Of a stretch of DNA of 64,000 nucleotides, positions 7,236 to 62,303 are shown in pieces. Both the position numbers and the translations under genes were made by a program. Position 1 is the stretch's first letter; each line of letters starts with the position of its first letter. Source of the stretch: Malacoraja senta (lineage: Eukaryota); NCBI GenBank assembly GCA_038087875.1, contig CM075988.1, positions 2,604,001 through 2,668,000 of the forward strand, read 5' to 3'. The notes under the pieces were generated by a model. That model was not told the origin of the DNA. It searched no databases and worked only from the letters and a program-made list of their open reading frames with translations.

Positions 7236-7574
7236 CTCATATACTAATTTCTACTCTATACTAATTTCCCTGACTGATGAAGACCAGCATGCCGAAAACC
7301 TCCTTCACCTCCCTGTCTATCAGTGACGCCACTTTCAGGGTTCTATATACTTACTCCAAGATACCTCTGCTCTACACATTCTCCAGGGTACTACCATTCA
7401 CTTGAAGACCCTTCCCTGGTTTGGTTTACCATGGTCTGACTTCCCAAAATGCAAAACTTCACAAATCTATATCTATCTATCAATACTATTACTAAAACTC
7501 TCATCTTGTCCTCTTCCGGATTCCGTTGTTTTTAAATTTGCACAGAAACGGTACCCTGTATCGCTAGGATTTGA

Positions 7575-8785: not shown

Positions 8786-9180
8786 AGAATCCATTCGGCC
8801 CACAATGTCTATACTAGCCCTCTGGAAACCAGTCCCTTCGGCCCACAGCACCCATACTGGCCCTCCAGAAACGCCCCGCCCCCACTGGCCACCGCCTTTA
8901 TCTGTCCCACTCTCCCGGCTGCAGGATGCTCCCCCCTCGCCCACCAGCTCCCAATAGCCCCGCCTGAAGCCTTGCTCCTCCCCAGGACGCAGGACACTCC
9001 CCCCACCGGCCCCCGCCTGAAGCCTACCCCGTCCCCGGCTGTAGAAGGCAACAAGAAAGAATGGACTGAATAAATCTCTTTAACGTTTCAATTGTTGTTA
9101 TATTTTAAAAGTTATTCACATTTTAAGCTTTAATAAATCCCCTTTCCACTTGCCGTGCCCGTCAGCTGCACCTGCACAGT

Positions 9181-24779: not shown

Positions 24780-26182
24780 TCAGTTCCTCCATCTCCTTTG
24801 ACCTGCTATTTCCGGCAGATTATTTATGTCTTCCTTAGTGAAGACGGAACCAAAGTAGTTATTCATTTGGTCCGCCATATCCTTGTTCCCCATGATCAAT
24901 TCACCTGTTTCTGACTGCAAGGGACCTACATTTGTTTTAACTAATCTCTTTCTCTTCACATATCTATAAAAACGTTTGCAGTCAGTTTTTATGTTCCCTG
25001 CCAGTTTTCTTTCATAATCTATTTTCCCTTTCCTAATTATGCCATTTGTCCCCCTCTGCTGGTCTCTGAATTTCTCCCAGTCCTCTGGTATGCTGCTTTT
25101 TCTGGCTAATTTGTACGCATCATCTTTGGCTTTGATACTATCCCTGATTTCCCTTGTTATCCATGGATGCACTACCTTCCCTGATTTATTCTTTTGCCAA
25201 ACTGGGATGAACATTTTTTGTAGTTCATCCATGCAGTCTTTAAATGCCTTCCATTGCATATCCGCCATCAACCCTTTTAGAACTAATTGCCAGTCAATCT
25301 TGCCCAATTCACGTCTCATACCCTCAAAGTTACCTTTCTTTAAGTTCAGAACCGTTGTTTCTGAATTAACAATGTCACTCTCCATCCTAATGAAGAACTC
25401 AACCATATTATGGTCACTCTTGCCCAAGGGGGCACGCACAACAAGACTGCTAACTAACCCTTCCTCATTACTCAATACCCAGTCTAGAATAGCCTGCTCT
25501 CTCGTTGGTTCCTCTACATGTTGGTTTAGATAACTATCCCGCATACATTCCAAGAAATCCTCTTCCTCAGCACCCCTGCCAATTTGATTCACCCAATCTA
25601 TATGTAGATTGAAGTCACCCATTATAACTGTTTTGCCTTTGTTGCACGCATTTCTAATTTCCTGTTTGATGCCATCCCAACTTCACTACTACTGCTAGGT
25701 GGCCTGTACACAACACCTACCAGCGTTTTCTGCCCCTTAGTGTTTCACAGCTCTACCCATACCGATTCCACATCCTCCAAGCTAATGTCCTTCCTTTCCA
25801 CTGCGTTAATCTCCTCTCTAACCAGCAACGCTACCCCACCTCTTTTTCCTTTCTCTCTATCCCTCCTGAATATTGAATATCCCTGGATGTTCAGCTCCCA
25901 GCCTTGGACACCCTGGAGCCATGTCTCCGTGATCCCAACTATATCATAATCATTAATAGCTATCTGCACGTTCAACTCATCCACCTTATTACGAATGCTC
26001 CTTGCATTGAGATACAAAGCCTTCAGGCTTGTTTTTACAACGCTCTTACCCCTTAAACAATTATGTTGAAAAGTGGCCCTTTTTGATTTTTGCCCTGGAT
26101 TTGTTTGCCTGCCACTTTTACTTTTCACCTTGCTGCCTATTGCTTCCGCCCGCATTTTACACCCCTCTGTTTCTCTGCTCAC
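24780..26182 (-). pseudogene. CR1 ORF2 N-terminal part (APE endonuclease)
   Basis: ORFs 25745-26182 and 24780-25622 with apurinic-endonuclease motifs. Confidence 0.88.
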
Positions 26183-26334
26183 TCATTTAAGAACCCCACC
26201 ACCTCTTATTCTCTGTTTATTATTGTTTTCTTCTTTCCCCCCTACATGTTGGGTCTGAGTGCTTTCCTTCTCTGCCTCCTGCCTCACACATTGTCTAATA
26301 GCTTTCTCTATTTGAGTCCCTCCCCCCAACCATT

Positions 26335-27549
26335 CTAGTTTAAAGTCTCCCCAGTAGCCTTTGCAGATCTCCCCGCCAGGATATCGGTCCCCCTCAGGTT
26401 CAAGTGCAACCCATCCTTTTTGTACAGGTTGCACCTTCCACAAAAGAGGTCCCAATGATCCAGAAATTTGAATCCCTGCCCTCTGCACCAGTCCTTCAGC
26501 CACGCATTTATCCTCCACCTCGCTCCATTCCTACTCTCACTGTCGCGTGGCACAGGCAGTAATCCCGAGATTGTTACCGTTGCTGTCCTTCTCTTTAACT
26601 CCCCTCCTAACTCCCTAAATTCTCCTTTCAGGACCTCTTCTCTTTTTTTACCTATGTCATTGGTACCTATATGTACCACGACCTCGGGCTCCTCTCCCTT
26701 CCCTTTCAGGATATCTTGGACACGTTGAGACACATCACAGACCCTGGCACCAGGGAGGCAAACTACCATCCGGGTCTTCCGACTGCATCCACAGAATCGC
26801 CTGTCTGACCCCCTAACTATAGAGTCCCCTATTAGTATTGCCCTCCTCTTCTTTTCCTTACCCTTCTGAGCAACAGGACCGGTCTCTGTACCGGAGGCCT
26901 GGCCGCTGTCACTACCCCCAGGTAGGCTGTCCCCCCCAACAGTGCTCAAACAGGAGTACTTATTGTCAAGGTGTACAGCCACCGGGGTACTCTCTAGTCC
27001 CTGCCTGTGCCCCTTGCCTCTCCCAACCGTGATCCACTTGCCTGCCTCCTGTGGTCTTGGAGTGACCACCTCCCTGTAACTCCTCTCAATGACTTCCTCA
27101 CTCTCCCTGACCAGACGGAGGTCATCGAGCTGCTGCTCCAGGTTCCTAATACGGTCCCTTAGGAGCCCCATCTCGATACACCTGGCGCAGATGTGGACGT
27201 CTGGAGGGCTATCAGACTCCATGACTTTCCACATCTGACATCCAGAACAGTAAACTGCCCTGGCCCTCATACTCCCCTTACCCTGGATACAATACATCTG
27301 ACATCCAGAACAGTAAACTGCCCTGGCCCTCATACTCCCCTTACCCTGGATACAATACATCTGACATCCAGAACAGTAAACTGCCCTGGCCCTCATACTC
27401 CCCTTACCCTGGATACAATACATCTGAAATCCAGAACAGTAAACTGCCCTGGCCCTCATACTCCCCTTACCCTGGATACAATACATCTGACATCCAGAAC
27501 AGTAAACTGCCCTGGCCCTCATACTCCCCTTACCTAGGATACAATACAA
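26335..27549 (-). CDS. CR1 ORF1 protein: zinc-finger/coiled-coil + SGNH/GDSL esterase domain, with an N-terminal repeat expansion
   Basis: Open 404 aa. CSGC..CARC, then a leucine-rich coil (IRNLEQQLDDL), then LIGDSIVRG, CLPGA, HIGTND and DGLHLN esterase blocks. Confidence 0.9.
   Translation of the reverse strand: MYCILGKGSMRARAVYCSGCQMYCIQGKGSMRARAVYCSGFQMYCIQGKGSMRARAVYCSGCQMYCIQGKGSMRARAVYCSGCQMYCIQGKGSMRARAVYCSGCQMWKVMESDSPPDVHICARCIEMGLLRDRIRNLEQQLDDLRLVRESEEVIERSYREVVTPRPQEAGKWITVGRGKGHRQGLESTPVAVHLDNKYSCLSTVGGDSLPGGSDSGQASGTETGPVAQKGKEKKRRAILIGDSIVRGSDRRFCGCSRKTRMVVCLPGARVCDVSQRVQDILKGKGEEPEVVVHIGTNDIGKKREEVLKGEFRELGGELKRRTATVTISGLLPVPRDSESRNGARWRINAWLKDWCRGQGFKFLDHWDLFCGRCNLYKKDGLHLNLRGTDILAGRSAKATGETLN
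27231..27547 (-). repeat. 63-bp tandem repeat x5 across the CR1 ORF1 start
   Basis: The unit encodes MYCIQGKGSMRARAVYCSGCQ (21 aa) and the copies are near-identical. Confidence 0.95.
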
Positions 27550-28997
27550 AACAAACTGCTACAATACAGTACAATCAGCAGGGATCTGACTCCCAATCAG
27601 TTGCTCCCTCTTGTCTGCTTCCACCAATCAGCGGCTTCCTTAAGCCCACTTGTTTTTGAAGTGCGAGTGGAACTTGGAATGTTGCAGATTTTGGCTCCTC
27701 CTCCCTCTGCGACCGCTCGGGTGTAGCTCCTCCCTCTGCGACCGCTCCAACGGCTCTCGGGCCTCTGTAAGGAACAAGCCCTGCGCTCCACTTTAACTCC
27801 TACTGCTCGGGTGTAGCTCCTCCCTCTGCGACCTCTCCAACGGCTCTCGGGCCTCTGAGTATCTTCAGCATTTGAAATTCCCACCCTACCAAGAAGTTTT
27901 TGATGTCTCACACTTAAATTAGCATAGATGTCAGTGTATTTAAAATCAAGTGACAGGACCAATGAAGGAAGATTTTTTTTTGGATATCTTTAACTTGAAA
28001 CCAATTTTGTTACTCCAGTTACTTTTTAAAAATCATTTAACATTAATTGGGTACAACAAACACTTTCAAGCAAAAATGAAGCAGATTCTACTAGAGGTGA
28101 ATGAACCTAAGATAGATGCTAAACAGAGAAGAGTTTTGGCTCAGAACACAAAGCGCTGGTGTAACTCAGCGGGTCAGGCGGGAACTCAGTGATTAGAGTA
28201 TAAATTGGTCGAAAATACTTTAATCAATCTGAGAATTCCATATCCCCAAAGACATTTCCTTATAAATTTTTTATTTGAATTTGCATACGTCGAATTTACA
28301 TACTATCTAATTAAAAATAATTAGATAGAGAATAGTGAGCTGAAAATTTTTCGATTCAACTTTGCCACTATTCAGAATCTCACATTGAGGTGCTGGTCAA
28401 TTTAAAGTGTACATATTTTCTTCCAGATTAATCTGTGTATAATAAAACTTCAAAGTAATAGTTTAGAGTGTGTTTAAGATTGCCGTCGTTGCATTGTGTT
28501 TACTGTGTGTTGCCTTTGATTTAAATTTTGAATGTTAGATACACTGTTGTAATACTAGTTTGAATATAGAATCTGTATAAGGATATAGTTTGGTCGGGAC
28601 TGTTGTTCTAATTGGAGTCCGACTCGTGATTGTTCGACCAGGGGTTCGTATCCTTCCGATCGCTGTTTCGGCGAAGGGATTGTTCCGATTGGTTGAACAC
28701 ACCACGAGGAGGGATTAAAATATATTGTGATTTGTTTTTGGAAATGTACAGTTAGCAAATGCGATATTAGGAGAATGCTTGTGGTTTATATAGGAGTGTG
28801 GTTGTGTATGATAGTAATTAGTAGTATAATTTCTTGTCTGCGATTTTGCTTGCATGTTTGGAGCTCATTTGCATGTGTTTGAGTTAAGGTTGCTCTGGGT
28901 ATAGGAGATGGGCTGCGGGAACGTGTTTGATTGTATTTGACTGTTTGATTGTTCCCTGGAGTACCTTAATCTTTGGATGATTGGGGATTGTTAAAAT

Positions 28998-30257
28998 CAA
29001 AGATCCTATAGCAAGCAAGATAGTCCACTCGACGAAAAAGACGTAGTACAGTCATGGGTAGGTTCATTGGTAAATTTCGGCCCCATTTCCGTAACCAGCT
29101 TCTGTTTCCGCCATCTTTGTCTGCCATAGCGGAGCAAAGATACTAGTGCAGAGACAGAAGCCGGTTACGGAAACATCCTCGTAAAAATCAAACATCTTTG
29201 GTAAAAATCTTCTCCTCATTTTCTTTCTGCCTCTCTGCCTCACAATAAAAAGCAAAAAGATGTCTATGTTCCTTCCACAGCGTGTGCGAAGCCTGGCCCG
29301 GATCAGCACGGCTGGGACGCCAGGGTAAAGTTGCGGGGAGGTTTGCAATGTATTTTTATGTAATGTTGTCCCTTGTCTGGGCCTTGTGTCCGAAATAAAG
29401 TTTATCATTATATATACAAATCTGGAGAAATATATATGTGTGTGTTATATGATTTATATACATCTATATCACATTCATATATGTGTGTAGACAAAAGTGC
29501 TGGAGAAACTCAGTGGGTGCGGGTTCGGTTTTCCAGCATCTGCAGTTCCTTCTTAAACATATAGGTGTGTATGTGTGTTCTTTCCTACACAATCTAATCA
29601 GTTGTATGGTCGCTGAATAAAACCATCCATCCTTAAGTTATACATCATTTTTTAATCTAGCTCAAAACAAATTTTACTTTGTTTAGATAACCCCACCATT
29701 ACAGACAGATCTCATTCCACTCTCTGGCTATTGGGAAGACCAAACACATTTTATTGTCGAAAAACAATTCCATAGACTAAAAAAAACATCAAGGAATATT
29801 AAGGAACATTCCGAGATTCCAAGAGCAGAGCAACTGGAATCTTCATATTGCTATTATTTTCCAAATACCACAATTGTGAACAGTGTGATTAGATGAATTA
29901 CAGAGAGCAAGAGTAATACAAAAATCAACTCAAACTCAAACACAGCACATGAGCCATTTAAAAAGAAAAGCTTTAAAAAAAACCTATTAAGAAAGACAAT
30001 TAACAGAATCATAATTTGTTAACATATTAATCTTTAACAAAATGTAACAGAATTATGATTGAACAGAATTATGAATCTAACCCTATATCACACACGCAAA
30101 CTGTCCCCCCCGCTACGCTGATTACACTGCGAGATGGATATACAAAGTCGGGTCGGGTTACTGAAATGGACGAAGAAATAGCCCACGTTCAGCTCCATTG
30201 TGTACTACACGTCAGCCCATTGCATTTAGCAGAAGTGGACTATCTTGCTCGCTATAG
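28998..30257. mobile_element. Non-autonomous inverted-repeat DNA element in the ERV1 leader
   Basis: CTATAGCAAGCAAGATAGTCCACT (29006-29029) vs AGTGGACTATCTTGCTCGCTATAG (30234-30257), 23/24 inverted match; TTAAAAT on both flanks. Confidence 0.7.
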
Positions 30258-30374
30258 TTAAAATTGTGAGAGTTGTGACAGTAGAAGAACTTGAACACTA
30301 GATAGGAAGGATTGATTGTACGATTGTGTTGAGAAAAGTGCGAGACTGCTGGCGCTTCGGAACATTTGGCCATT

Positions 30375-30600
30375 GTTTTTCTTATTTTTGTGTTTCTTAA
30401 TTTTTTAATTTCTTAATTGTGTTTCTTATTTTCTTTTTGTGCTTTTGAAATTGAATTCTGTCCTTGATTTGTGTACGGTGGTGTTTTTATATTTAATTTA
30501 CTCCGATTATGTGTTTTGTATTTTTGTGATTCTATGCCTTGTAAGGTGTCCTTGGGTTTTAGAAAGGCGCCAGTAAATAAAATGAATTATTATTATTATT
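30375..30600 (+). mobile_element. L2-type LINE/SINE 3' end
   Basis: GTAAGGTGTCCTTGGGTTTTAGAAAGGCGCCAGTAAATAAAATGAA(TTA)n stem-loop plus tail typical of the L2 clade. Confidence 0.65.
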
Positions 30601-30692
30601 GTTCTGGAGCGAGCTTGATAGCTTTGGAGATTGAGAGGGAGGTATGAATTCTTAAAAAGGTGTGAGCGGCGTTGATTCCACTGTCTAGAAAC

Positions 30693-32715
30693 ATGGGGAA
30701 TCAAAATCATGTGGAACAAGATATGACTGCTGATTCCGAAAGCCCATTGCAATTAATATGCAGCGAATTTCCACAGAGCTAAACAATTAAGAAACCTTTC
30801 TGGGGTATTAAATAAAGAATTAGGGGACTAATTATGGCCCGAGGGAGGCGTTGGGACATTGAAGGGAGTGAAGTACATTGAGCAAATTATCTGGCAATGT
30901 AGCGATAGTGAGGAGGCAAAGGAGTTAATTGGATTGTGGAAATATTATTATGAGGAACGGAAGGTAAGTAGAGACGCGGAGAGAATGGCAAGTTGGAAGG
31001 AAGCAACTCTGAAGCGTGGAATAGAATTGGAGTATACTGAAGTGTACCGACCTCCAGGCATCTTGAGAGAGGCGCATGGGTGTATTAGAGAGCAGGGGAG
31101 AAGGAAATCTTCCAAAGGGGAACTGGCACCAGTAGGTCTCAAGCTTGAGGACCCGACGGTTGGCGTCAGTTTTGAGGGGGACGATGATGAGTACCTAGAA
31201 GATTGGGAAAGTGTTAAAATTAGAAATCCGCGGCCACCACCTTATTCTTCTTGCGTTCCCATCGCTTCAAATACGCATTGTGTAGCTGGTGAACGTAATA
31301 GACAATCAGATTCTGCAGCACAGGATTCCTTAACCCCGACCGCTCCATTCATAATAAATAGTCTGAGAGTTCACGGTACTTGAAGCAAAACAAAAAGGAT
31401 AACTCAAGTAGTTAAGGACAAAGCAGGTAGAGGAAGGGAACAGAAACCAGGGTATTCTTGCAAGCTTAAACCTAGACGAGTGGACAAGTAGCGGGAGAGG
31501 AAAGTGAGTCATTTAGAAGATACCGTGAACCCCCTAGTGAAGGGGAAGATACATCTGGGGGCGAGACAGCAATTGAAGATACTGAAGTAGTTCTTGATAT
31601 GGCAGAAAGTACAAAAACAAAACAGGCAACTCATAGACAGTTCCCTGTCAGGGAAATGTCATTTCCTCCCTTTGATCCGGCCAATGTAGTGAGTGCAAAT
31701 AATCCCCGTACAATAAGAGTTTATACCGCATGGAAACCCAATGAGATGATGGCCATTTTAAGTCAAATACCCGATCGTAGAAAATCACCTGCTTCTTTTG
31801 TGGATCATCTAAGAACTACAATACACGTATATCACGCATATTCCCGAGATTTATGGGCAGTGATCCAGCAAATAATTACCCCAAGCGAACACACCAGATT
31901 CTTAACAATTCTAGGACATCCGACACATGAAGCTCTAGCAAATATAATAGCAGACAATAGTGCAAGAGAAGAGGCTGTTTTAACCGCCCTTGCAAATACC
32001 CTGCAGAAACCAATTGATTTGGCCAAAATCTTGGATGTAAGACCAAAAAAGGGAGAGGGAGCAGATGAATTCTTAGAACCATTTTCCGAATTATATATGG
32101 ATCAATCGGGTGACTTAAATGATCGAAATGGAGTAAATTCCCCACAGTACTGTGCCATCTTATTGAATTGTCTTCCCACTAATGTAGCTGAATCCATTAA
32201 ATGGACTGGACAGAAAATAGTGCCAGTCAAATGGCTCAGGCAGTAAGATATCACTGGAGGGAAATTAAAAAGCAGGAGAGTCAGCCTACAGTAAAACCAA
32301 AGACTGAATATGTAATAGAAAAGAATTGCCAACATCTGACCCTGAACCATGAATCCCCAGAGTACCAGCAAATTACAGATAGGGAGAAATAAGGGTTCTG
32401 GAATATTTAGATCGATATCATAGAGAAATAACTGCCCTAGAGCCAGTCCCTCAGAGACCAAATTTGTGGAGATACCGATCTTAAGGAGTGGGACAGTGTT
32501 ATACTTGTGGAGGAATAGGTCACTGGAGTACGGAGTACCCAAATAAAGAAAGGAATGAAAGAGGGGGTCACAGAAGAAATTTTCAAGACCAGAGAGAATG
32601 GAGAGATTCCAGAGATCAACGGGATCATGAAGAGCACATAGGGAACTGGCAGGAGAATCAAGAATCAAGAGGACAAATCTCGTTTTCCCAGAATAACCCA
32701 TTCACACGCCTATGA
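30693..32715 (+). pseudogene. gag: ERV1 gag (MA-CA-NC), multiple stops and frameshifts
   Basis: Starts MGNQ (myristoylation-type), then WPEGG, the PPPY late domain, a CA-like region (31599-32246) and the CYTCGGIGHWSTEY knuckle; ends NPFTRL*. Confidence 0.85.
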
Positions 32716-35681
32716 TTAGCAAACCTAATGGTGACTGGATGCAAGTCTGACGAAGAGCCTATATTGTCTCTACAGATAGAAGGAAAAATCTGCACCTTCT
32801 TAGTAGACACAGGCGCATCCATGTCATCTCTCCAATCAATTTACAAACTCCCCGAGTCAAAAGAAATTCAGAACCTGTCCGGGTTTCAAGGACAAGTCTG
32901 CCAGTATCCTCCATCTCTGAGCCAGTTGAAGTAGTATATGGAGGAAAGGCAATCAAACACAGATTTGTGATAACCAATTTGCAATTTGATGGCGAGAGAT
33001 TTGCTCTGTGCTTTCCAAATAAAAATAGAATGTGGTGACAGAGGTATAGTAGTGACCCCCTGGGCTCCCTTACAGCAGTGTTACTCCATAGTGACCCCTC
33101 AATGGTGGTCCTTAGATCTGGACGAAGAACCCCCACTTCATATTACACTGGCTTACAACAGGAGTGGGAAGAATAAAGAGCTGGAAGCCTTCTTTAACTT
33201 CTCAATAGTAGACTTGCAACATGCATTCTTTTCTCTGCCTCTTCACAAAGACAGCCAATATTTGTTTGATTTCACATATAGAGGCCAACAATACACCTGG
33301 ACCAGATTGCCTCAAGGGTTTATCAATTTGCCTACTTTATTTTCCAGGTGTCTACAAGAACAATTGAGTACTTTAAAATTCCCAGTCAAAAGTACTCATG
33401 GCCCAGACCGAGAAAGCACAAGAGGCCTTTGAAAACTTAAAAAGATCACTGATGCAAGCCCCGGCGTTGGGAAGACCATTGTACGACCGACCTTTCCAGC
33501 TCTACTGCACTATATTATCTGAATGTGTAACATCAGTTCTGACTCACATACATGGGGATAGACATAGACCAGTTGCTTATTACTCTTCTAAATTAGATCC
33601 TGTAGCCAGGGGACATCCACTTTGCACTCAAATGTTGACAGCTATATATAATAGTATATACTACAATCTCCAGCAGGAGATTGTAGTATATAGTTCACAT
33701 TCGGTAGTGGCATTGTTTGGGCAGCTTCAGACACAGCACCTAACAATGGCTCACCAAAATAAGTATGAGATCTATCTTATGAACAACCCTAAACTGCAAT
33801 TTAGACATTGTACATTAATTAACCCAGCCTCTTTCCTTGTTTCACCCCCAGAAGAGCAATCAGAAGTGGGACATGACTGTCTATTTGTCATAGAGGAGGA
33901 AACATCTGTAAGAGAGGACTTAAGGGACGCACCTATAGAGGACTCTGACATAACATTATATGTGGATGGGAATACATCTATTGGACCGTGGGGTGAGAGA
34001 TTGTCTGGGTATGCAATTGTTAATCAGGAAGCGGAAGTTGTAGAAGCAGCTGCCTTGGAGTCACATTCAGCACAGCAAGCTGAATTATTTGCTTTAATTC
34101 GGGCTTGTATTACTGGGGGAAATTTAAAAGTAAATATTTACACTGATTCTCGGTATGCATTTGGAGTGGTGCATGATTTTGGACAATTATGGAAAAATAT
34201 TTCTAACTTCTGCAGGAACCCAAATTTCAAATAAACAATTGGTGACAGATTTATTAAAGGCCTTAATGTTGCCAGACAAATTCCTGTTATGAAATGTAAC
34301 GCCCACACTAAAGGACAGACTCCAGTAGATATCGGGAATCGTAATGCCGATTTAGTAGCAAAGAAAGTATCATGGGAACATAAGATGATGGTATCCCTAT
34401 TTGACTTAGTTCAGATAATGGTCCACACTTTATTGGACAAATCAATAAAGAATTTTGTGAACAGCTGGGGATCCAGCAGCAATTGCACTGTGCTTATCGC
34501 CCATCTAACAAGTCCCCCTTGGAAAGACTGATGCCAACCATCCACGAAATAGTTCAATTACAGGAGGAGGCTACTGAAAGGGATAAAGAACGATGGAGAC
34601 AACTTGGGTGTGTACTGGATTGTATGACTGGACTATGGACCACTCCAGCAGGGCAGACTTGCATGACAGATGCATTGGCAATATGGGTTATAGAGTGTAT
34701 GCATTATGCAACCCATTGTGGTGCAAGGGCAGTGATGGACACTCTATTGGCTACTTGGTGGCATCTGAAACTACAAACTTTATCTCAGAAGGTAAGCAGT
34801 AATTGTTTGGTGTGCCAGAAATACAATCCAGGGAAAGGAATAGGATGTGAAGAAGGAAAAACACCATTGCCTAATGGTCCACTTGAGACATTGCAGATGG
34901 ACTATATCAAATTAGAAAGGTGCCAGGGTTCTAAATACGTACTTGTCATAGTCGATGTATTCAGCCGGTGGATCGAAGCCTACCCAACCCTTGATAACAA
35001 AGCGGCTACTGTTGTCAATGTGTTAACGAGAGAAATTGTCCCTAGATTCGGTATCCCTATTTGACTTAGTTCAGATAATGGTCCACACTTTATTGGACAA
35101 ATCAATAAAGAATTTTGTGAACAGCTGGGGATCCAGCAGCAATTGCACTGTGTTTATCGACCAGAGGCTGCTGGACTTGTAGAAAGGTAAATCCGGCCCT
35201 TAAAACTAAATTAGCTAAATTAAAGGCAGAGACTGGACTTGGATGGATTAAATTACTCCCAATAGCTCTATTTCAGATGAGAGTCACGCCTGTAGGGAAA
35301 TCTAGACTGAGCCCAGATGAAATTGTTATCGGTAGACCCTTGAAAACACATTGGAACCAGAATGCGATGAAAATAATCAACTTCTACCATATGACTGCGG
35401 AGATGACTGACTACATTGTAGCTTTGACCAGAGCCTTAAGGGGCTCACATTGTTGAGTAAGAGCAGCCTATAGCGAGATGCCTTTATTAACAGCTCCCAT
35501 TAAAGTGAAACCTGGAGACTATGTCCTTATAAACAATTGCGTAAGGAAAGGATTAGAGGTTCGCTGGGAAGGACTTTATCAGGTTCTCCTAACAACCCCA
35601 ACAGCAGTGAAAGTGGATGGAAGGAATGCTTGGGTACATCTCCACCATTGTAAAAGTATCAGTGAAAGAATGGACTGCTAA
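32716..35681 (+). pseudogene. pol: ERV1 pro-pol (protease, internally deleted RT, RNase H, integrase)
   Basis: Protease FLVDTGAS and NLMARDLL. RT VDLQHAFF and YTWTRLPQGF, with no YxDD. Tether APALGRP and RPVAYYS. RNase H LYVDG, SAQQAEL and IYTDSRY. Integrase HYATH..CLVC, QMDY, VDVFSRW, SDNGPHF and a GPY/F-like C-terminus. Confidence 0.92.
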
Positions 35682-35760
35682 CTTACTTTATCCCAGATTC
35701 TATTAGGAACTTTATACTCTACTATGGATCAAGCACAGATGAACTATCAAGATTGATGGA

Positions 35761-38700
35761 TGATTATTGAAGTTAATACTATCTGTTTAAAAATTATTAG
35801 CTAAAACTGTGATTTATACATGACATGTTATAATGAAACATAGAGGGTAAAATTGTATTATATATCTTAATGTGTGTCCCAGTTTTAATATGTTATGATT
35901 AATTAAGAGAGCGGCGCTAGTTGCTTAACATCAGCAACGGAAGTCGAAACAAGGTTTTCTCCCACCTACAGGTGGGCCACTAGTTACAGTGTCAACTATT
36001 TTAGACACTGTATTTTCACTTTTTTTATTTTTTTTATTTTTATTATCACTTAAATTCACATGTTTGTTTTTTGTGTTTAGGGATAAGCGTAAAAGGAATA
36101 TACCAACAAAATTTAGAAATTTAAAACTCCCCCCAATACCCAAAGACCTGGGATATGGATGCACCACAAAATTTAAAGGTACTATAATTACTCAAAATGC
36201 AAGATGCTAAGCAAAAGAGCCTAGGAGGAGTCTCATTCTGCAGTTGGAATATAAGAGGTATTAATGAACCCATTAAAAGGGCTAAGATACTAGATCAGCT
36301 GAAATTGTACAACTCTGACATTATCTTTTTACAAGAAACTCATCTAAAATCCCATGATCAACCTAGGTTGAGGGCGAAATGGATAGGTCAAACATACCAT
36401 TCTTCATTTACCTCAAAATCTAGATACGTCAATTATTATAAGAAAAGGTATACCATTCAAAGCAAAGAATACTATAACAGACATTGAAGGGAGATACTTA
36501 ATAGTTAATGGAGAAATTCATGATACTCCAATCACTTTGGTAAATATATACGCGCCTAACTTTGACAACCCTCATTTTTTAAATAAAATTTTGAATAGCA
36601 TCGCAGAGTCTAACTATCAAAATGTTATAATAGGAGGAGACTTTAACTGTGTTTTAGATCCGTATTTAGATAAATCAAGCAAAAAACTGAGAGGGAATAC
36701 GAAATCTAAATCTGGTGAATTTTTAAATACTTATATAAACAACACTAATATAGCAGATGTTTGGAGAATTGCTAATCCAACTGGCAGGGAATACTCGTTT
36801 TATTCAATGGTACACAAAACATACTCACATATAGATTATTTCCTGGCAGACACCAAATTAATCCCTCATATTTCTAACCCAACATATCATACAAACTCTA
36901 TTTCAGATCATTCACCATTAACTTTTTTTTTTAAACTGGAAGGGATGTCTAAGAATAAATCGTTCTGGAGATTTAACTCATATCTTAAAAGATCCACAAG
37001 TGAGTATATATTTAAAAGAACAAATGGATGCCTTTTTTGAAATAAATGACACTCCAGACATATCGCCTACTGTATTATGGGAATCTTTTAAAGCATATAT
37101 TAGAGGTATTATAATTTCATACCAAGCTTTTCAAAATAAAAAGAATAAGAATGAACAAAAACAACTAGAGGAACTTATTAGACAAATGGATATAGATAAT
37201 GCTAAAGATCCATCAATAGAAAAACATAATAAAATAATAATTCTGAAATTTAAATTAAATAAACTATTATCAGCCAAACTGATAAAACTTTTTCAAATTA
37301 CAAAACAAGAGTACTTTGAATTTGGGGATAAACCGCATAAACTTCTGGCCCGACAGCTAAAAAAACGTGCAAAAGAACATACGATCCCAAAGATTAAATC
37401 AGATAGAGGGGAATTACTAACTACACCGAAGGATATTAATAAAAGATTTGCACAATTTTATGAGAATCTGTATACATCTAAAATGACAACTGATTCCTAT
37501 AAAATTACTGAGTTTCTGGATAACTGTAATCTTCCAAAGTTAGAGGTGAAGGAACAAGAGGAATTGGGAGCACAAATTTCAATTAAGGAATTAGAAGATA
37601 CAATAAAATCACTAAAGAATGGAAAAACTCCAGGTCCTGATGGATTTACTAATGAATTTTATAAAAATTTCTATGATAAAATTATACCTAGATTACAAAA
37701 AATGTACCAACATGCTTTTAAAAAACAAATACTACCTGATACATTAGCTGAATCAACGATTACATTAATACTTAAAAAAAAACAAAGATATAGAAGAACC
37801 GGGTTCATATAGAGGTATTGCATTGTTAAACACAGATAAAAAAATATTAGCAAAAACATTAGCTAGAAGATTAAGTAAATATATTAGCAAACTAATAAAT
37901 CCAGATCAGACAGGGTTTATCCCGAAGAGATACTCAGCTAATAATATGAGACGTTTACTCAATATAATGCATTCACATAAATTTGAAGAACAAGAATTTG
38001 GGTCCTTTTCTGGATATAGAATAAACTGGAACAAAAGTGAAATTATGACGTTAAAACCTCAAGAATCCACATACTTATTGAAATTCCCCTTTAAAATAGC
38101 AACAGAAAAATTCAAATATTTGGGTATTCAGATTACTAGAAAACATAAAGCTTTATTCAATGCCAATTTTATACCCTTAATAAATAAACTTAATATAATG
38201 ATAAAATTTTGGAAAACACTCCCTTTATCATTAATAGGCAGAATAAATGCTATTAAAATGAGCTTCCTACCACAGTTATTATACCTATTTCAATCTATAC
38301 CAGTATATGTACCAAAATATTTTTTTTCTAAACTGAACGCTAATATTACTAATTTTGTTTGGGATTACAAATCACATAGAATTAAAAAAGAACACTTATG
38401 TAAACCAAAAGATGTCGGGGGACTTTCACTCCCTAATTTTTTGTATTACTATTGGGCAATACATATTAAGAATATAATTTACTGGTTGGATAGTTCAACT
38501 CAACAGACAGAATGGATAAAAATGGAGAAAGAGGATTGTTATCCTTGTAATATAGGAACAATCCTCTTCTCCCCGAAAAAAATGAACAATACAATATATA
38601 AGAAAAACCCAATTATACAAGATACAATAAGAATATGGAAACAAATAAAATTATCCTTAAAATTAAGAAACCTATCATTGTTAACACCGATAGCGAATAA

Positions 38701-41700
38701 TCCTTTATTTAAACCATCTATGATGGATAAAATATATAATCAATGGGAAAGTTTAGGAATTAAAAGGATCGGGGATATGTATGAAATGGGAGATTTATTA
38801 TCATTTCAACAATTACAATTAAAATTTAAACTGAAAAACACTCATTATTTTAAATATTTTCAGATTTGTAATTTTTTGAAGACATACATACAGGGATATC
38901 AAAAAATAACTCCTGATTTACTAGAAGAAGTAATGAATATAAAAGCTGATACACAAAAATTAATATCATATTTATACAATAGTATCTTAAATATCGATTT
39001 ACCTGTGACCGAGGTAATTAGAGAAGAGTGGGAACGGGAATTATTGATAAAAATTACGAAGGCTACATGGGGAAAGTATTTGACATACATTCACAAGTGT
39101 TCGATTAACGCAAGACATAACCTAATCCAATTAAAAATTTTACATAGATTATATTACTCAAAAACAAGATTAAATAAATTTTATCCAAATATATCGCCCA
39201 TTTGCGATAAATGTTTAACCCAAGACGCAACTATAACACACTCTTTTGTTTCTTGTATAAAACTTCATGGATTTTGGAGTGATATTTTCAAAATATTTAC
39301 AAAATTATTTAAGACAAAAATGGAACCCAATAATGAATTGATTATATTTGGGGTAATGGAAGACGGGAACAAATTGAGCTCATCTGAAAAGTCAATTTTT
39401 AATTATGGTTTAATAATAGCAAAAAAATTAATATTCAAATTTTGGAAAAATACACCAATACCAACGCTCAAAATGTGGATTGCAAGTATGTTGGATACCG
39501 CACATCTTGAGGAAATGCGATTCCTCCTAATAGATAAATTTGACCAATTCATAACGAGTTGGTCTCCATTTGTCGTCTTTTTGGAAACATATGGTGCAAA
39601 ACAGGTGTAAAAGCTAATCCGTGACTGCGGATGGTCAAGATTATAAATGATCTCCTATTTTCTTTTCTTCTCTTCTCTTCTTTTATTCTCTTTCTTCTAT
39701 TTTCTATGTCTCAACTTTCTTTTTTCATTCTTTATTTTTATTTTTCACACACTATATATCACATTTTTCTATTTTTCATTACCTAACTTTTTTCTTTTTC
39801 TTCTTTATTTCAAAAAAAAATTTAAATAAGAAGCTGTACATAAAAGGTATTATGAAAATATGATTGTATACAATTGTACTTCTAATAAAATAAAAATATT
39901 AAAAAAAAAAAAAGAATTATCAATTATTTCGCTGGACGCTGAAAAAGCATTTGATCAAGTAGAATGGAATTATATGGATAAAGTATTAGAAAAATTCCAA
40001 TTGGGAAAGAATTTTATTTTATGGATTAAATTACTATATAATAAACCTACAGCTAGAATATTAACTAATAATATATTATCTTCGAAATTTCAACTATTAA
40101 GGGGAAATAGACAAGGGTGCTCATTATCACCACAGTTGTTTGCTCTTATAATTGAACCATTAGCAGAAAAAAATAGAATACATCCCGATATCCATGGGTA
40201 TAATACTAAATACTCAAATAATAAAATATCTTTATAAACGGATGATATATTACTGTACATTACAAAACCTCAAATCACTATACCAAATATATTAAACTTA
40301 ATTGAAGACTTTGGATCTTTTTCTGGATACAGAATAAATTGGAATAAAAGTGAAATTATGTCAATAAAACCGAAAGACTCAACACATCTTTTAAAATTCC
40401 CTTTTAAAATAGCTACAGAAAAATTTAAATACCTGGGAATCGAAATTACCAGAACATATCAAGGTATGTTTAAAGCAAATTTTGAGCCTTTACTTAATAA
40501 ATTAAATACATTAATTAAATTTTGGAAAATGCTCCCGATGTCTTTAATAGGCCGAATAAATGCAATAAAAATGATCTTTCTTCCACAAATTTTATACCTA
40601 TTTCAATCGATTCCTATATACTTACCAAAGAAGTTTAAAAAAAAACTGGACTCAGACATTACTAATTTTATATGGGACTTTAAATCACATAGAATACAAA
40701 GAACACACCTGAACAAACCCAAAGTACTAGGGGGCTTAGCACTCCCTAATTTCATGTATTATTATTGGTCAGTAAATATTAAAAATATGATTCAACTGAT
40801 GGATAATTTTGCTCAGCAAGTGGATTGGATTGTAATGGAGAGAGAGGACTGCTCCTCTAGAAACATTGGAGCGATCCTCCTCTCACCAACGAAACTGAAT
40901 AACATAAACTATAATAAGAACCCAATCATACATAGTACAATCAGAATTTGGAAACAAATAAAACAAAATTTAAAATTAAGACATTTTTCACTTTTATCTC
41001 CCATAGTTAATAACCCTTCGTTTAATCCCTCTACTACAGATAAAGCCTTCATACAATGGGATAGACTAGGAATTAAAACGTTCGGTGACCTGTATGAAAC
41101 TGGAAAATTACTATCATTTCAGCAATTACAAATAAAATATAAACTTGGAAATAATCAATATTTTAAATATTTTCAAATATGTGACTATTTGAAAAAATAT
41201 ATAAAAGATCATTATAATAGCCCAGTAGATGTTTTGGATGATGCAATGCAGATAAAAGCTGATTCAGCAAATTCAATATCATATTTGTATAATATTATCT
41301 TAAATGTAGAAATACCATCTACGGAAGGTATTAGAAGAGAATGGGAACAAGATTTAGCTATTATAATCTCAAAAGAAAAGTGGAATGAATACTTATTAAA
41401 AGTGCATAAATGTTCGATAAATGTAAGACATACTTTAATACAATCCAAAATTTTACATAGATTATACTATTCTAAAACTAAAATCCATAACATTTCCCAA
41501 ATATATCATCAAACTGCGATAAATGTCAATCTCAAGAAGCTACTATAGCGCATTCATTTGTCTTTTGTACAAAAATTCAAAAATTTTGGATTGACATTTT
41601 TGAAATCTTTACAAAATTATTTAAAATAAAACTGATACCCAAAGCAGAATGGATTATCTTCGGAATAACGGAAGATAGTCCAGAACTAAATGTGTTTCAA

Positions 41701-42263
41701 AAGAAACTAATAGACTATGGGTTAATAACTGGAAAAAAGTTAATCCTAAAATTTTGGAAAAATGCTCCAATACCAACTATAAATATGTGGATTTCAAATA
41801 TGTTTGAAACATTACACCTAGAAGAGATAAGACTCCTCCTGGCAGGTAAACCAGACCACTTCCATCTGACGTGGTCGGCATTTATAGAATTATTACAAAT
41901 ATAGGGTGCAAAGGTACTTAAAAAAAACTGAGGTCGGGTAGGGGGGGGATGAAAATTGGAGATTTGGTATGTCCCATTTGCGGGATGCTGATAAAAAAGG
42001 TATTTGTTCTTCTCTTTTTCCTTTCTCTTTTTCTTCTTCTTTTCTAGGGTCTACTTCTTAACTCTTTTTCTTATAGGGTCTTTGTTCTTTCTTGTTGTCA
42101 TGTTTTTTTTTTTTTTTACACTTTCACCTTTTCCTTCACTTTCCTCTTTCTCTTAATCTTATCCTCTCCCTTTATTAATGTAAAAAAAACAACAAATGGA
42201 GTACATTAATTGTAATAAAATATATGTGACGAGTACTAAATTTTTTTTTTTTTTTAATAAAAA
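35761..42263 (+). mobile_element. L1-clade LINE A (5'-truncated in the spacer; APE-RT ORF2 from 36197 to 41904, disrupted)
   Basis: SWNIRG, FLQETH, NIYAPN, GGDFN, SDHSP, GKTPGPDG, SLDAEKAFD and RQGCSLSP. TSD AAGATTGATGGA at 35749-35760 and 42264-42275. Confidence 0.9.
37999..39911 (+). mobile_element. L1-clade LINE B, 5'-truncated, nested in L1 A
   Basis: Begins at FGSFSGYRIN, has its own stop (39610), T-rich 3' UTR, AATAAA and poly(A). AAGAATT at 37992-37998 and 39912-39918; L1 A resumes at LSIISLDAEKAF. Confidence 0.88.
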
Positions 42264-51595: not shown

Positions 51596-52310
51596 TTAGG
51601 ATGAACACTAACACACTATAATTAATGAAAAGGGGTATAGAATATTATAACATCATAAATCTGTGTGAAGAAAGAGGCGTTAATGATTTGGAAAAGTTCC
51701 AGAGGTTTGGGCTGGAAGACGGTTGTATTTAAGATAAGAAATGTAATCCTTGAAACAGGCTGGTAATTAAGGGACAGATGAATATATTCGGATACAGGGA
51801 CAGGGCATGTGTTTTTATGTTTTACAATTCCACGACTCTGTGATACCGAGCAAGTAACATAGAAGGTTTAAAATTGGGGTAAATAAGAGAATATTTGAAA
51901 TAGTAAAGATGATGATGATAACTTTCTATTGTTGAAACTTTTTTTTCTGTTTTATTCGGCCTGACCAGATAAATTTTTGCTAATGAAAATGTTTTTTTTA
52001 ATTTGACATTGTATTTAGGGGGCTGAACTCAATGTATAATTCCATCTACGGAGGTCAATCAATTTTTGGCCATCATAGATGGCTTCTTGTATTTAGGGTA
52101 TCACCTTTTTGATACCTTAAACTCACTTTTTTTTTTGTATTTACTTTTATGTGGCTTATCTAACAATTTTTCTTTCTTTCTTCACTATTTCTCAACACAC
52201 TTTTCTCTTTTTCTTATGGAGGTTCAATATACGGAGAAGAGGTAAAATGACGTCAGAAGTATGGGATGATACCCACATACCCAAAAGCCTGAGGTACTTA
52301 AACACACCAC

Positions 52311-55300
52311 ATGAAGCAAAATTACCAAAACCTATTTACAATGCAGGATAATAAGGAAAAAAAGAATGGAGGATTCACATTCTGTAGTTGGAATATTAGG
52401 GGTGCGAATGTTCCAATTAAAAGGGGCAAGATTATGGCCCAGTTAAAATCTTTAAATGTGGACATAGCTTTTCTGCAAGAAATGCATACGAAACTACAAA
52501 AACAGATGAGACTAAGGGCAAACTGGATAGGCCAAACTTATCACTCGTCATTTACTGCTAAAGCTAGAGGAACGGCTATTATTATTCGGAAAGGTATACC
52601 ATTTATATTAGAGAACACTATATCTGATAAAGAAGGAAGGTACACGATAGTGGCGGGAGAAATTTATTCTACACCACTGACTCTGATAAATATTTATGCA
52701 CCAAATTTTGATAAACCCCAATTTTTAAAGGAAATTATGGATATAATAGATGAGTATAATTTTCAAAATGTAATACTAGGGGGGGACTTTAACTGTGTTA
52801 TAGATTCATATTTAGACAAATCAATAACATTAAGGAAGGGTAGTGGCAAATCCAAGTCTAGTGAATTCTTAAACACATATATAAAAACACAAATATAACA
52901 GATGTATGGAGAATAGCTAATCCAACTGGAAGGGAATACTCGTTTTGCTCATCAGTACACAAAACATATTCAAGAATTGATTATTTCTTAGTGGATACAA
53001 AATTAATACCATATACGATTAATCCTAAATACCACAATAGTATTATTTCTGATCACTCCCCGTTGACTTTTACTTTAAAACTTGAGGGAATGCCAGGTAT
53101 AAAATCCTTTTGGAGATTTAACACACAAATAGCTAATGACAAATAGCTAATTACGAGTATTTAAAACAGCAAATGAAATTTTTTTTTGAGACAAACGAGA
53201 CACCAGGTATTTCACCATCTCTATTATGGGAATCTTTTAAGGCATTCATCCGTGGAGTTATAATTTCGTATCAAAGTTTTCTAAATAAAAAAAACAGGAC
53301 AGAACAATGGACGTTAGAAAAGGAAATTAAATTATTAGAATTAGGTAATGCAAAAGACCCAACTATAGATAAACATAATAAGATTACATTATTGAAATTT
53401 AAACTTAATCGAATATTATCGGCAAGAGTAATAAGATTATTTCAGATCACAAAACAAGTACAGTTTGAATTAGGGGATAAACCACATAAACTTCTAGCAC
53501 GACAATTGAAGAAGCAAGAAAAGGAAAAAACAATTATTAAAATTAAATCAGAGAACAGGGAACTATTAACTTTACCTAAGGACATTAATAAAAGGTTCGC
53601 TCAATTTTATCAAAATTTATATACATCTAAAACTAAAATAGAAGACAATAAAATTATAAATTTTTTAGATAATTGTAATTTGCCAAAATTGGATATCTTA
53701 GAACAAGAGGAATTAGGAGCTCAGATCACAAGTGAAGAAATAAGAGAAACAATAAAAGAACTGAAAAATGGGAAGACACCAGGGCCTGATGGTTTTAATA
53801 ATTAATTCTATAAAAGATTTCAGGAGTTAATGGTCCCACGATTACTTAAATTATATACTTATGCTTTTACCGAAAATAAATTACCAGAAACTTTAGCAGA
53901 ATCTACAACTACGCTTATACCAAAAAAAGATAAAGATCTAGAAAATCCAGACTCGTAGAGAGCTATATCACTTTTAAACACAGATCAAACATTTTTAGCA
54001 AAGATTTTAGCAAGAAGATTGAGTAAATATATTAATAAATTGATAAACCCGGACCAAACGGGGTTTATACCTAAAAGACAATCATTTAATAATTTGAGAT
54101 GACTTTTTAATATAATGTATTCACATAAAGTGGAAAAGGAAGACTTATCAGTTATATCTTTGGATGCAGAGAAAGCATTTGATCAGGTAGAGTGGCAGTA
54201 TTTATATATAGTACTCCAAAAATTTAATATGGGAGATAATTTTATTAGATGGGTGAAATTATTATATGATAAACCAATGGCAAGAATATTAACTAATAAT
54301 ATGTTGTCTCCAAAATTCCAATTATCACGGGGCAATAGGCAGGGGTGTGTTTTATCACCCCTGCTATTTGCCCTTATGATAGAGCCTTTGGCTGAAAGGA
54401 TAAGAACACATCCGAATATTCAGGGATATAATACTAAGGACTCTAATAACAAAATTTCACTATATGCGTATGATATACTTTTATATATTAGAAATTCAGA
54501 AACGAGTATCCCGAATTTACTAAACGTAATAGAGGAATTTGGCTCTTTTTCTGGATATAGAATAAATTGGAATAAAAGTGAAATTATGTCATTACAGCCC
54601 CAGAAAGCGAATCATCTATTAAAATTTCCATTTAAAATTGCAATGGAAAAATTTAATTATTTAGGTATTCAAGTTACTAGAAGATATAAATCATTATTTA
54701 ATGCTAACTTTAGTCCTTCATTAAATAAATTGAACGCTCTGATTAAATTTTGGAAAACGCTCCCACTATCATTAATTGGCAGAATAAATGCTATAAAAAT
54801 GATAGTTCTACCACAAATAATATATTTATTTCAATCCATACCAATATATATACCAAAATATTTAAAAAAAAAAAACTAGACTCTAATATTACTAATTTTA
54901 TTTGGGACTACAAAGCACATAGAATTTAAAGAAATCATTTGTGTAAACCTAAAGATGTAGGGGGACTTGCACTGCCTAATTTTTTATATTATTATTGGGC
55001 AGTGCATATTAAGAATATCATTTACTAGTTGGACTGCCCTTCTCAACAGATGGAATGGATAAGAATGGAGAAAGAGGATTGTTTTCCGTTCGATTTAGGA
55101 GCGATCCTCTTCTCCCCGATAAAATTGAATAATACATTATATAAGAAGAATCCAATTATACACAATATAATTCGAATTTGGAAACAAATAAAATTAACTT
55201 TAAAATTAAGAAACTTATCATCATTAACACCAATAGTGAATATCTATAAAACATATAGACAATGGGAAAGATTGGGAATTAAAAAGGTGGGTGACATGTA

Positions 55301-56128
55301 TGAAATGGGAAATTTATTATCATTTCAACAATTAAAATCAAAATGTAATCTGAATAATAACCAATACTTTAAATATTTACAGATATGTGACTTTATAAAA
55401 AAATATATACCAAGACTACAGAGCATAATGATAGACCCACTGGAAGAAGTAATGAATATTAAGGCAGACTCACAAAAATTAATCTCATATTTATATAATA
55501 GTATTCTTAATAGAGAATTGCCATCAACAGAGGCAATTAGAGAAGACTGGGAAAAGAATTAATGACAAAAATTTCTAAAGAAACATGGGAGAGGTATTTG
55601 ATATATATACATAAATGTTCGATTAACGCTAGACATAATTTAATTCAATTTAAAATATTACATAGATTATATTATTCAAAAGTTAGGTTGAATACATTTT
55701 ATTCAAATATTTCTCCCATCTGTGATAAATGTCTTTCTCAAAATGCCAATATCACACATTCTTTCGTTTCTTGCACAAAACTTCATGGATTTTGGTGTGA
55801 TATATTTGATATATTCACTAGTTTATTTAAGATAAAAATGGAACCTAATATGGAAATTATTATCTTCAGAGTAATAGGAGATGGAATCAAATTAAATATA
55901 TCCCAAATTTCATTTTTTAATTATGGTTTAATAACAGCAAAAAAACTCATACTTAAATTTTGGAAAAATGCTACTATACCAACACTCAAAATGTGGTTTG
56001 GTAATATGTTGGAAACTGTCCACTTGGAAGAAATGATACTCCTCCTAATAGATAAACAAGACCAATTCTTAACGAGTTGGTCTCCATTTATTGACCTTGT
56101 GGATTCATTTGGTGCAATAGTATCGTAA
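52311..56128 (+). pseudogene. L1 ORF2 (APE endonuclease-RT-Cys domain)
   Basis: ORF pieces 52311-52898, 53173-53805, 54115-54879, 55029-55562 and 55562-56128; the RT YADD reads YAYD. Confidence 0.9.
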
Positions 56129-59404: not shown

Positions 59405-60400
59405 TTAAAATAGTTTCTGCAAACAATCATTAACAATAGGCCAATGGTAAAAATGTTGAAACATCAACTCATTGGACCACCCGGTGGCTGCGAGGATATG
59501 GTCGACGGGGACATCTTTTGCCCTGGCCGCCGACGTTGCTGCTGCCCTAGTCGAGTGAGACGTAAAAACATAAGTGTTAATACCAGCAGCTGTTAAGACT
59601 TCTTTTATCCATCTGGAAATAGTCTGTATTGAAACTCTCTTGTGTGGTTTCTTGTGTGTGATCAACAACCCAGTTTCCGTATTTCTCAAATACTTTGTGA
59701 CCTCAATGTATTGTAACAAATATGTCTTAACACAGAGACAAGGATCATTTGCATATGCTGCTAGCATAATTTTAAATCCTGTCACACCTGGCCTAATTTG
59801 CTTTAGTAGGTCATAGATATAGAATGTAACCTTGTCTTCAGTTACTTCCATACTGTCTATTTGTAATTTTCCAAGTGTTTGCACTCGTTGTGCTGTCACT
59901 CATGCCATAAGCATGAATACTTTCATACTGAGCTTGGCCAAAGGTAAAGACACACTTGGTGACCATTCACAAAGTAGTTTCAGTACCACACTTACATCCC
60001 AGATTGTCATGTACCTAGGTTTCGGTGGTTTGGAATTAAAGATTCCTTTCATTAGTCTGGAAACAATTGGGTGTGACCCAATTGAGTTTCTTTCTGAATC
60101 CAGAACCAAATGTGAGGACAATGCACTTCTGGCTGAATTAATTGCACTACAACTCAGACCTTCATCATAATAAAGTTTTGACAGAAATTCTAAACATTTG
60201 AAATATCTGCAGTACCATATTGCACATTCTTTTGTACACAGAACTCTTCCCATTTCTTAATATAAGAAAGGTACTGTTTTTGAGTGCTCTTCCTCCAGGC
60301 TGCCGTAAGGATGTCCACAGTACGCTCAGACAGTCCTCGCCCCAGAAAAGGCCTTCTTAAAACCTGCAAATCAACAAATCCAAACGATCATATAATGGAT
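59405..60400 (-). pseudogene. DIRS tyrosine recombinase
   Basis: SAINSARSALS, PKPRY..WDV, TAQRVQTL, LCVK, TISRWI, FTSHSTRAAATS and GW....F..FY. Confidence 0.9.
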
Positions 60401-62288: not shown

Positions 62289-62303
62289 TTGAGTACTCTG
62301 AGA

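What the first reader, a model, noticed from the sequence alone, without database searches (positions are those of the whole stretch)
33075..33200. Extra HxT (2H-phosphodiesterase-like) module between protease and RT in ERV1
Seen: after the protease end (NLMARDLL) the frame continues ~60 aa as ..PQWWSLDLDEEPPLHITLAYNRSGKNKELEAFF (His codon at 33139). It then jumps in frame to the middle of RT (FSIVDLQHAFF), so the RT N-terminus is missing. Known: hydrophobic-H-x-[T/S]-hydrophobic is the signature of 2H phosphoesterases, which carry two such motifs. Viral members (e.g. MHV ns2, rotavirus VP3-CTD) cleave 2'-5' linked nucleotide messengers, and 2H domains are reported in some fish retroviral polyproteins. 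Inference: this ERV family encodes a Pol-embedded 2H-PDE, possibly an innate-immune antagonist or RNA-end processing enzyme, whose second motif was lost in the same deletion. Only one motif is visible here.
Basis: partly seen in the sequence, partly recalled or inferred. Interest (0 to 1): 0.8.

Follow-up and report, generated by a model that had tools for sequence, protein, structure and literature searches.

The report
Broken CNPase-like domain in fish retrovirus
A dead endogenous retrovirus, likely of a shark or ray, keeps the first quarter of an enzyme domain between its protease and reverse transcriptase; intact relatives are predicted to fold like the host enzyme CNPase and likely open cyclic-phosphate RNA ends, a kind of domain already reported in fish retroviruses but, as far as I could find, never tested.

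Summary
Observation confirmed. The H-I-T-L motif (His codon 33139-41) lies in a decayed class I ERV pol, 63 residues of which run from the protease end to an in-frame deletion at 33197|33198. Contigs from 7 public runs stop matching at exactly that point. About 225 codons are missing against a skate Pol.

Natural relatives in sharks and skates keep the second motif: 10 of 15 proteins have both, 9 of them 60-61 residues apart. Two AlphaFold models of undeleted relatives match vertebrate CNPase best (Z 14.2 and 15.1), far above the 2-5A/cGAMP enzymes rotavirus VP3, MHV ns2, AKAP7, Acb1 and penguinpox PDE (Z 5.0-7.3). They also match walleye retrovirus Env polyproteins.

So the 2H domain is real, but it is CNPase-like, not ns2-like. 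The likely activity is opening 2',3'-cyclic phosphates; this is untested. This copy is dead: about 39 of 140 domain residues survive, and RT lacks its YxDD motif. 2H/CNPase domains are already reported in walleye viruses and teleost ERVs, and five earlier findings of this scan describe the same kind of domain. New member of a known kind; modest interest.

The parts
30832..32715 (+). Decayed gag region in several frames (ORFs 30832-31383, 31476-32246, 32485-32715; the last has a Cys/His zinc-knuckle-like stretch)
   Evidence: ORFs. No Pfam hit for the two ORFs scanned. Assignment from position and the visible Cys/His pattern (inferred).
32713..32715 (+). Single in-frame stop between gag and protease, the layout of class I read-through
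   Evidence: read-through itself is inferred from established retrovirus biology
32716..33050 (+). Retroviral aspartyl protease (DTG motif), frameshifted, with its C-terminal tail and linker
   Evidence: Pfam RVP E 6.7e-6; tblastn with P0006 residues 15-162
33079..33197 (+). N-terminal ~39 residues of a CNPase-like 2H phosphoesterase domain; first motif H-I-T-L at 33139-33150
   Evidence: 68-84% identity to P0002 and P0003 over the stretch and its preceding linker; domain limits from structure alignments of relatives; alignment A1
33197..33198 (+). In-frame deletion junction: the rest of the 2H domain (with motif 2) and the RT N-terminus are missing, about 225 codons
   Evidence: loose ends; protein comparison
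33198..33410 (+). Middle fragment of RT, ending at a second deletion of about 120 codons that removes the YxDD catalytic motif
   Evidence: Pfam RVT_1; P0006 453 to 574 jump; no YxDD in any + frame of 32701-35700
33413..34372 (+). RT connection/tether and RNase H, with breaks
   Evidence: Pfam RT_RNaseH_2 and RNase_H
34390..35681 (+). Integrase (zinc finger, core, MLV-type C-terminal domain), broken; a 114-nt core piece is duplicated at 34390-34503 and 35050-35163
   Evidence: Pfam Integrase_H2C2, rve, MLVIN_C; 98% duplication

Best explanation
The segment is the surviving first quarter of a two-histidine (2H) phosphoesterase domain that this retrovirus family carries between protease and reverse transcriptase; in intact relatives it is predicted to fold like CNPase and likely hydrolyses 2',3'-cyclic phosphates on RNA ends or nucleotides to 2'-phosphates. 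Shown here: the position in Pol, two conserved motifs in undeleted relatives, mostly synonymous variation across family copies, and a deletion that leaves this copy with one motif and no RT active site. Inferred: the domain was made as part of Gag-Pol by read-through, packed into particles and probably cut out by the viral protease. It then opened cyclic-phosphate ends left by host RNases on tRNA primers or viral and cellular RNA, restoring a 3'-OH or removing ends that innate sensors detect. This copy does nothing.
For: Both motifs are present in 10 of 15 relatives examined, about 6 separate lineages; 9 have them 60-61 residues apart. His and Thr of motif 1 are invariant in alignment A1 (8 rows). 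AF2 model of P0004: domain blocks at pLDDT 79-96; best structure match mouse CNPase 2xmi, Z 14.2, rmsd 3.9, 139 aligned, next 7.0; every listed Foldseek PDB hit at E<=0.001 is CNPase or goldfish RICH. Second model, P0008, another lineage: 2xmi Z 15.1, rmsd 2.8, 144 aligned, next 8.1. The ESM Atlas gives 2H families for P0002 30-155: tRNA_lig_CPD 0.93, LigT-type TM 0.48-0.57. 8 of 11 variable sites listed in 33085-33197 are synonymous, against 38 of 113 possible transitions (binomial p about 0.009). A helix follows the motif-2 strand in both models, where CNPase has its family-specific helix alpha7 (PMC4643303). CNPase chemistry and tRNA-healing ancestry: PMC4643303, PMC5434554 (passages).
Against: No activity was measured, and a fold does not fix a substrate: viral 2H enzymes differ in specificity despite a conserved active site (bioRxiv 10.1101/2025.08.21.671373, abstract passage). 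Sequence identity to CNPase is only 11-17%. No Pfam 2H/CNPase family hits any relative scanned, at E<=1 or E<=10. The domain is compact: motif spacing 60-61 against 79 in mouse CNPase. The models rest on shallow alignments (12 and 6 rows) that share members. Matching domains lie in proteins labelled Env in walleye viruses, which argues against a job that needs fusion to RT. The synonymous test uses only contigs at least 85% alike and sites that are not independent.
Confidence: 0.6

Rival explanations
1. It is a 2H domain that destroys an immune messenger (2-5A like MHV ns2 and rotavirus VP3, or cGAMP like poxvirus PDE and Acb1).
For: Same superfamily and motifs; these enzymes score Z 5.3-7.3 against the models. 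Viral 2H enzymes vary in substrate. Placement in both Pol and Env fits an accessory, host-facing role.
Against: CNPase scores about twice as high in both models (Z 14.2 and 15.1). AKAP7/AKAP18, from which the 2-5A enzymes are said to derive (PMC7619455 passage), scores only 5.0-5.6. The Goldstein and Elde paper has no hit for retrovir, walleye, fish, shark or CNP.
Confidence: 0.2
2. It works mainly by binding: a captured CNPase-like module that acts on particle assembly or competes with host CNP, which blocks lentivirus assembly by binding Gag. Catalysis would be secondary.
For: Host CNPase inhibits HIV-1/2 particle assembly through Gag (PMC5434554 passage). The viral domain is closest to CNPase and occurs in both Pol and Env-labelled polyproteins.
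Against: Both catalytic motifs are kept in about 6 lineages whose 2H domains are only 34-45% identical where compared, which argues for retained catalysis. No binding data.
Confidence: 0.15
3. The motif is chance, and the segment is an ordinary protease-RT linker or RT N-terminus.
For: One four-residue motif is weak; no Pfam or PDB sequence hit for the segment.
Against: RT homology in P0002 begins at residue 149. Relatives keep a second motif at fixed spacing. Two models and the Atlas give a 2H fold.
Confidence: 0.03

Closest known systems
2H domains of fish retroviruses (walleye dermal sarcoma virus; Mazumder et al. 2002 as cited in PMC9503650) and CNPase-encoding epsilon-like ERVs of ray-finned fish (Basta et al. 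2009 as cited in PMC4977317)
   Same: A class I-type fish retrovirus carrying a 2H/CNPase-like domain. Models of relatives match WEHV1 Q9WHI8 (E 3e-7) and WDSV A4GTG3 (E 5e-5 to 6e-5) in BFVD.
   Different: Here the domain sits between protease and RT, and the named relatives are cartilaginous fish (Heptranchias, Leucoraja, Amblyraja, Scyliorhinus). The walleye hits are labelled Envelope polyprotein; I could not see where in Env the match lies. I could not read either primary paper, so what they say about position is unchecked.
Vertebrate CNPase / fish RICH catalytic domain (PDB 2xmi, 1woj, 2i3e)
   Same: Two H-x-T/S motifs; best structural match (Z 14-15, 139-144 residues aligned); a helix after motif 2.
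   Different: About 140 residues against about 215; motif spacing 60-61 against 79; 11-17% identity; embedded in a viral polyprotein; activity untested; the window copy is truncated.
Viral and cellular 2',5'-phosphoesterases (MHV ns2, rotavirus VP3-CTD, AKAP7) and cGAMP PDEs (Acb1, penguinpox PDE)
   Same: 2H superfamily fold and motifs; virus-encoded.
   Different: Much weaker structural match (Z 5.0-7.3). They cleave 2',5' links and leave cyclic phosphates (PMC8406329), the kind of end a CNPase-type enzyme opens.

Membership tests
2H phosphoesterase superfamily (family of this ERV) | Two H-x-T/S motifs | tested here: met
   10 of 15 natural relatives have both; 2 stop or leave frame before motif 2, 3 have only motif 2
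2H phosphoesterase superfamily (this window copy) | Two H-x-T/S motifs | tested here: not met
   Only motif 1 survives; deletion at 33197|33198. It is a fragment of a member.
2H phosphoesterase superfamily (family of this ERV) | Two-lobed 2H fold | tested here: met
   Predicted models of P0004 and P0008: the top 14 and top 16 rows of the wide search are all 2H proteins
CNPase/RICH subfamily | Structure closest to CNPase among 2H proteins | tested here: met
   Z 14.2 vs 7.0; 15.1 vs 8.1; Foldseek PDB
CNPase/RICH subfamily | Helix alpha7 after the second motif | tested here: inconclusive
   A helix follows the motif-2 strand in both models; residue-level equivalence was not shown
CNPase/RICH subfamily | Match to a Pfam 2H/CNPase profile | tested here: inconclusive
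   No such family listed for the relatives scanned; identity is 11-17%
CNPase/RICH subfamily | Hydrolyses 2',3'-cyclic phosphate to 2'-phosphate | not testable with these tools
   Needs an assay
2',5'-phosphoesterases (ns2/VP3/AKAP7) | Structure closest to AKAP7/ns2/VP3 | tested here: not met
   Listed at Z 5.0-7.3, well below CNPase
2',5'-phosphoesterases (ns2/VP3/AKAP7) | Cleaves 2-5A | not testable with these tools
   Needs an assay
Class I (gamma/epsilon-like) ERV | MLV-like RT, single in-frame gag-pro stop, MLV-type integrase C-terminus | tested here: met
   P0002 RT is closest to MLV-type RT in the PDB; stop at 32713-15; MLVIN_C E 7e-17
Epsilon-like lineage specifically | RT tree groups with WDSV/ZFERV | not tested
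   No reference epsilon RT sequences were fetched; no tree was built

The most novel reading that the evidence does not exclude
Fish retroviruses captured host CNPase early and kept it catalytically intact across cartilaginous and bony fish, moving it between Pol and Env. It would be a virion-borne RNA-end healing enzyme that opens cyclic-phosphate ends left by antiviral RNases on tRNA primers or viral RNA, and possibly also blunts the host's own CNP restriction factor: a retroviral counter-defence that mammalian retroviruses lack.
Probability: 0.2. Interest if true: 0.7.

Novelty: new member of a known kind. Interest (0 to 1): 0.3.

Why it matters
Retroviral Pol normally holds protease, RT/RNase H and integrase, sometimes dUTPase (own knowledge). 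A conserved CNPase-like enzyme in fish retroviruses is an accessory activity for which my searches found no functional test, and CNPase's own physiological substrate is described as unknown (PMC3290555, search listing). A small viral version would be an easy assay target and could show how retroviruses deal with cyclic-phosphate RNA ends. This locus adds little beyond showing that the domain is in a multi-copy ERV family held by 7 organism labels; it is a broken copy.

Tried and rejected
No host genome is held, so copies could not be compared inside the genome; public contigs were laid instead. No RNA holder was listed; this says nothing about expression.

Sequence-only searches did not reveal the family. 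Pfam gave no 2H hit. The PDB profile search with A2 gave one irrelevant hit at E 0.29. The IMG/VR scan found no relative. The word-indexed homolog searches returned only 1, 1 and 2 proteins. P0011 and P0012 were dropped as chance hits (Ig-like and carbohydrate-binding domains).

The 82-residue spacing in P0002 is an outlier caused by an extra stretch of about 22 residues, possibly a gene-model error; not resolved. No LTR pair was found by self-comparison of 27501-36500 with the window. No env domain was found among 45 of the 61 ORFs of 130 aa or more outside the provirus that I scanned; the 16 left out were mostly repeat-derived or opposite-strand frames.

Literature: 10 searches showed no functional test of the retroviral domain and no report for cartilaginous fish. 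The shark ERV paper PMC4422223 has no hit for phosphodiesterase or CNPase. Mazumder 2002, Basta 2009 and the journal version of Doherty 2025 are not held. I read no supplements; those of the Doherty preprint are closed and may list retroviral 2H domains.

Full report
Observation. It lies in a decayed retroviral gag-pol: protease, RT, RNase H and integrase pieces are found by Pfam, and one in-frame stop separates gag from protease. A strict version of the motif occurs 14 times in 127,996 six-frame residues, so the motif alone proves little.

The deletion. No host genome is held. Public contigs of 7 runs, with 7 organism labels and 7 studies, were laid on the stretch; 803-1333 contigs per run were laid on 1 kb, so this is a multi-copy family. 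Listed loose ends pile up behind 33197 and before 33198, and none of the listed pieces bridges that point (32 listed per call, thousands not listed). Other copies therefore go on with different sequence, and the window copy has a deletion there. Against the natural skate Pol P0006 the window jumps from residue 162 to 388, about 225 codons, and again from 453 to 574. The second gap removes the RT catalytic motif; no YxDD is left in any + frame. The protease is frameshifted and integrase is broken. No LTR pair or env was found. The copy is dead.

Relatives. A search with the segment found P0002 from the shark Heptranchias perlo, 68% identical over 69 residues. RT homology in P0002 starts at residue 149, so the segment is not the RT N-terminus. 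phmmer over 1.84 billion representatives gave 10 hits; 2 were dropped as chance. Named members come from Leucoraja, Amblyraja and Scyliorhinus, so the host is likely a cartilaginous fish (inferred). Of 15 relatives examined, 10 carry both H-x-T/S motifs, 9 at a spacing of 60-61 and P0002 at 82. Two stop or leave frame before motif 2, and three have only motif 2. These are about 6 independent lineages, since the skate records and the P0008 group are near-duplicates. Where compared, the 2H domains are 34-45% identical, similar to protease (40-41% in two pairs) and below RT (67%). Within the window's own family, one search lists 12 variable places; 11 lie left of the junction and 8 of these are synonymous, against 38 of 113 possible transitions (p about 0.009). 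No variant is listed in the first two bases of the His codon or in the Thr codon. This fits purifying selection while the virus replicated, with the caveats that only contigs at least 85% alike were laid and sites are not independent.

Fold. The ESM Atlas placed P0002 30-155 among 2H families by features and by structure. The AlphaFold model of P0004 (12-row alignment) is confident over the domain. Its best match among 48,161 PDB representatives is mouse CNPase 2xmi, Z 14.2, rmsd 3.9, 139 residues; next come drCPDase 7.0, rotavirus VP3 6.6, Acb1 5.8, MHV ns2 5.7, penguinpox PDE 5.3 and AKAP18 5.0. Foldseek lists only CNPase and goldfish RICH at E<=0.001. A second model, of P0008 from another lineage and without RT (6-row alignment, rows shared with the first), gives 2xmi Z 15.1, rmsd 2.8, 144 residues, next 8.1. 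The domain is thus about 140 residues, of which the window keeps about 39 (33079-33197). In the viral model library both models hit WEHV1 and WDSV proteins labelled Envelope polyprotein and the unnamed Q2VF30. The same domain thus seems to sit in Env in the walleye viruses and in Pol here; I could not see its place in Env.

Mechanism. In CNPase one histidine activates water, the other protonates the 3'-O, and a 2'-phosphate is formed (PMC4643303, passages); the enzyme is related to tRNA-healing enzymes (PMC5434554, abstract and passages). I infer the same chemistry for the intact viral domain (about 0.6). It would be made in Gag-Pol, packed into particles and probably released by the protease. 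It would act on cyclic-phosphate ends left by host RNases: on tRNA primers, where a free 3'-OH is needed, or on RNA fragments that trigger RIG-I/MDA5, NLRP3 or TLR8 (PMC8406329, passages). Cleavage of 2-5A or cGAMP is the main rival (0.2); the fold argues against it but cannot exclude it, since viral 2H enzymes vary in substrate (bioRxiv 10.1101/2025.08.21.671373, passages). A binding or decoy role against host CNP, which blocks lentivirus assembly through Gag, gets 0.15. None of these activities was tested.

What is known. PMC9503650 (passages) names 2H domains in fish retroviruses such as WDSV, citing Mazumder 2002. PMC4977317 (passages) says epsilon-like fish ERVs sometimes encode a CNPase, citing Basta 2009. 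Neither primary paper is held, so I saw nothing of them. Term searches in PMC10835031 and the Doherty preprint gave no 'retrovir' hit, and PMC4422223 on shark ERVs has no CNPase mention. PMC7619455 was seen as passages. Ten literature searches showed no functional test and no report for cartilaginous fish; the library lacks most subscription papers, and no supplements were read. Five earlier findings of this scan describe the same kind of domain in other genomes. I saw them before folding; they are not independent evidence, and I tested the CNPase-like fold myself.

Verdict. A real but broken member of a known kind: a CNPase-like 2H domain in the Pol of a fish class I ERV. Interest 0.3; the untested function of the domain is the part worth pursuing.

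Noticed in passing
BFVD hits Q9WHI8 and A4GTG3: The same CNPase-like domain matches proteins labelled Envelope polyprotein in walleye epidermal hyperplasia virus 1 and walleye dermal sarcoma virus, while it sits in Pol in the shark and skate ERVs; it may have moved between genes or been captured twice.
   Followed up: partly
window 34390-34503 and 35050-35163: A 114-nt piece of the integrase core is duplicated (98% identical) and sits upstream, near the RNase H/integrase boundary.
   Followed up: no
window 59408-62729 (minus strand): RT fragment (61493-61897) followed by a tyrosine recombinase ORF (Pfam Phage_integrase, E 5e-8), the layout of a DIRS-type retrotransposon.
   Followed up: no
window 24783-27558 (minus strand): LINE whose ORF1 carries a GDSL/SGNH esterase domain (Pfam Lipase_GDSL_2) and a 63-nt tandem repeat coding a repeated Cys-containing peptide, followed by an endonuclease ORF; CR1-type layout (recalled).
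   Followed up: no
window 36190-41900 and 52300-56125: AT-rich L1-like LINE copies (endonuclease, RT, zf-RVT); one starts about 500 nt after integrase, where env and the 3' LTR would be expected.
   Followed up: no
protein P0018 (Amblyraja radiata): An annotated 'zinc finger protein 271-like' begins with the second half of this 2H domain and an RT before the C2H2 array; probably a gene-model fusion, but exonisation was not excluded.
   Followed up: no
proteins P0002 and P0007: In both shark records the residue after the second H-x-T/S is arginine rather than hydrophobic; whether these copies were active is unknown.
   Followed up: no
window 7544-8829: Minisatellite of about 30-nt units.
   Followed up: no
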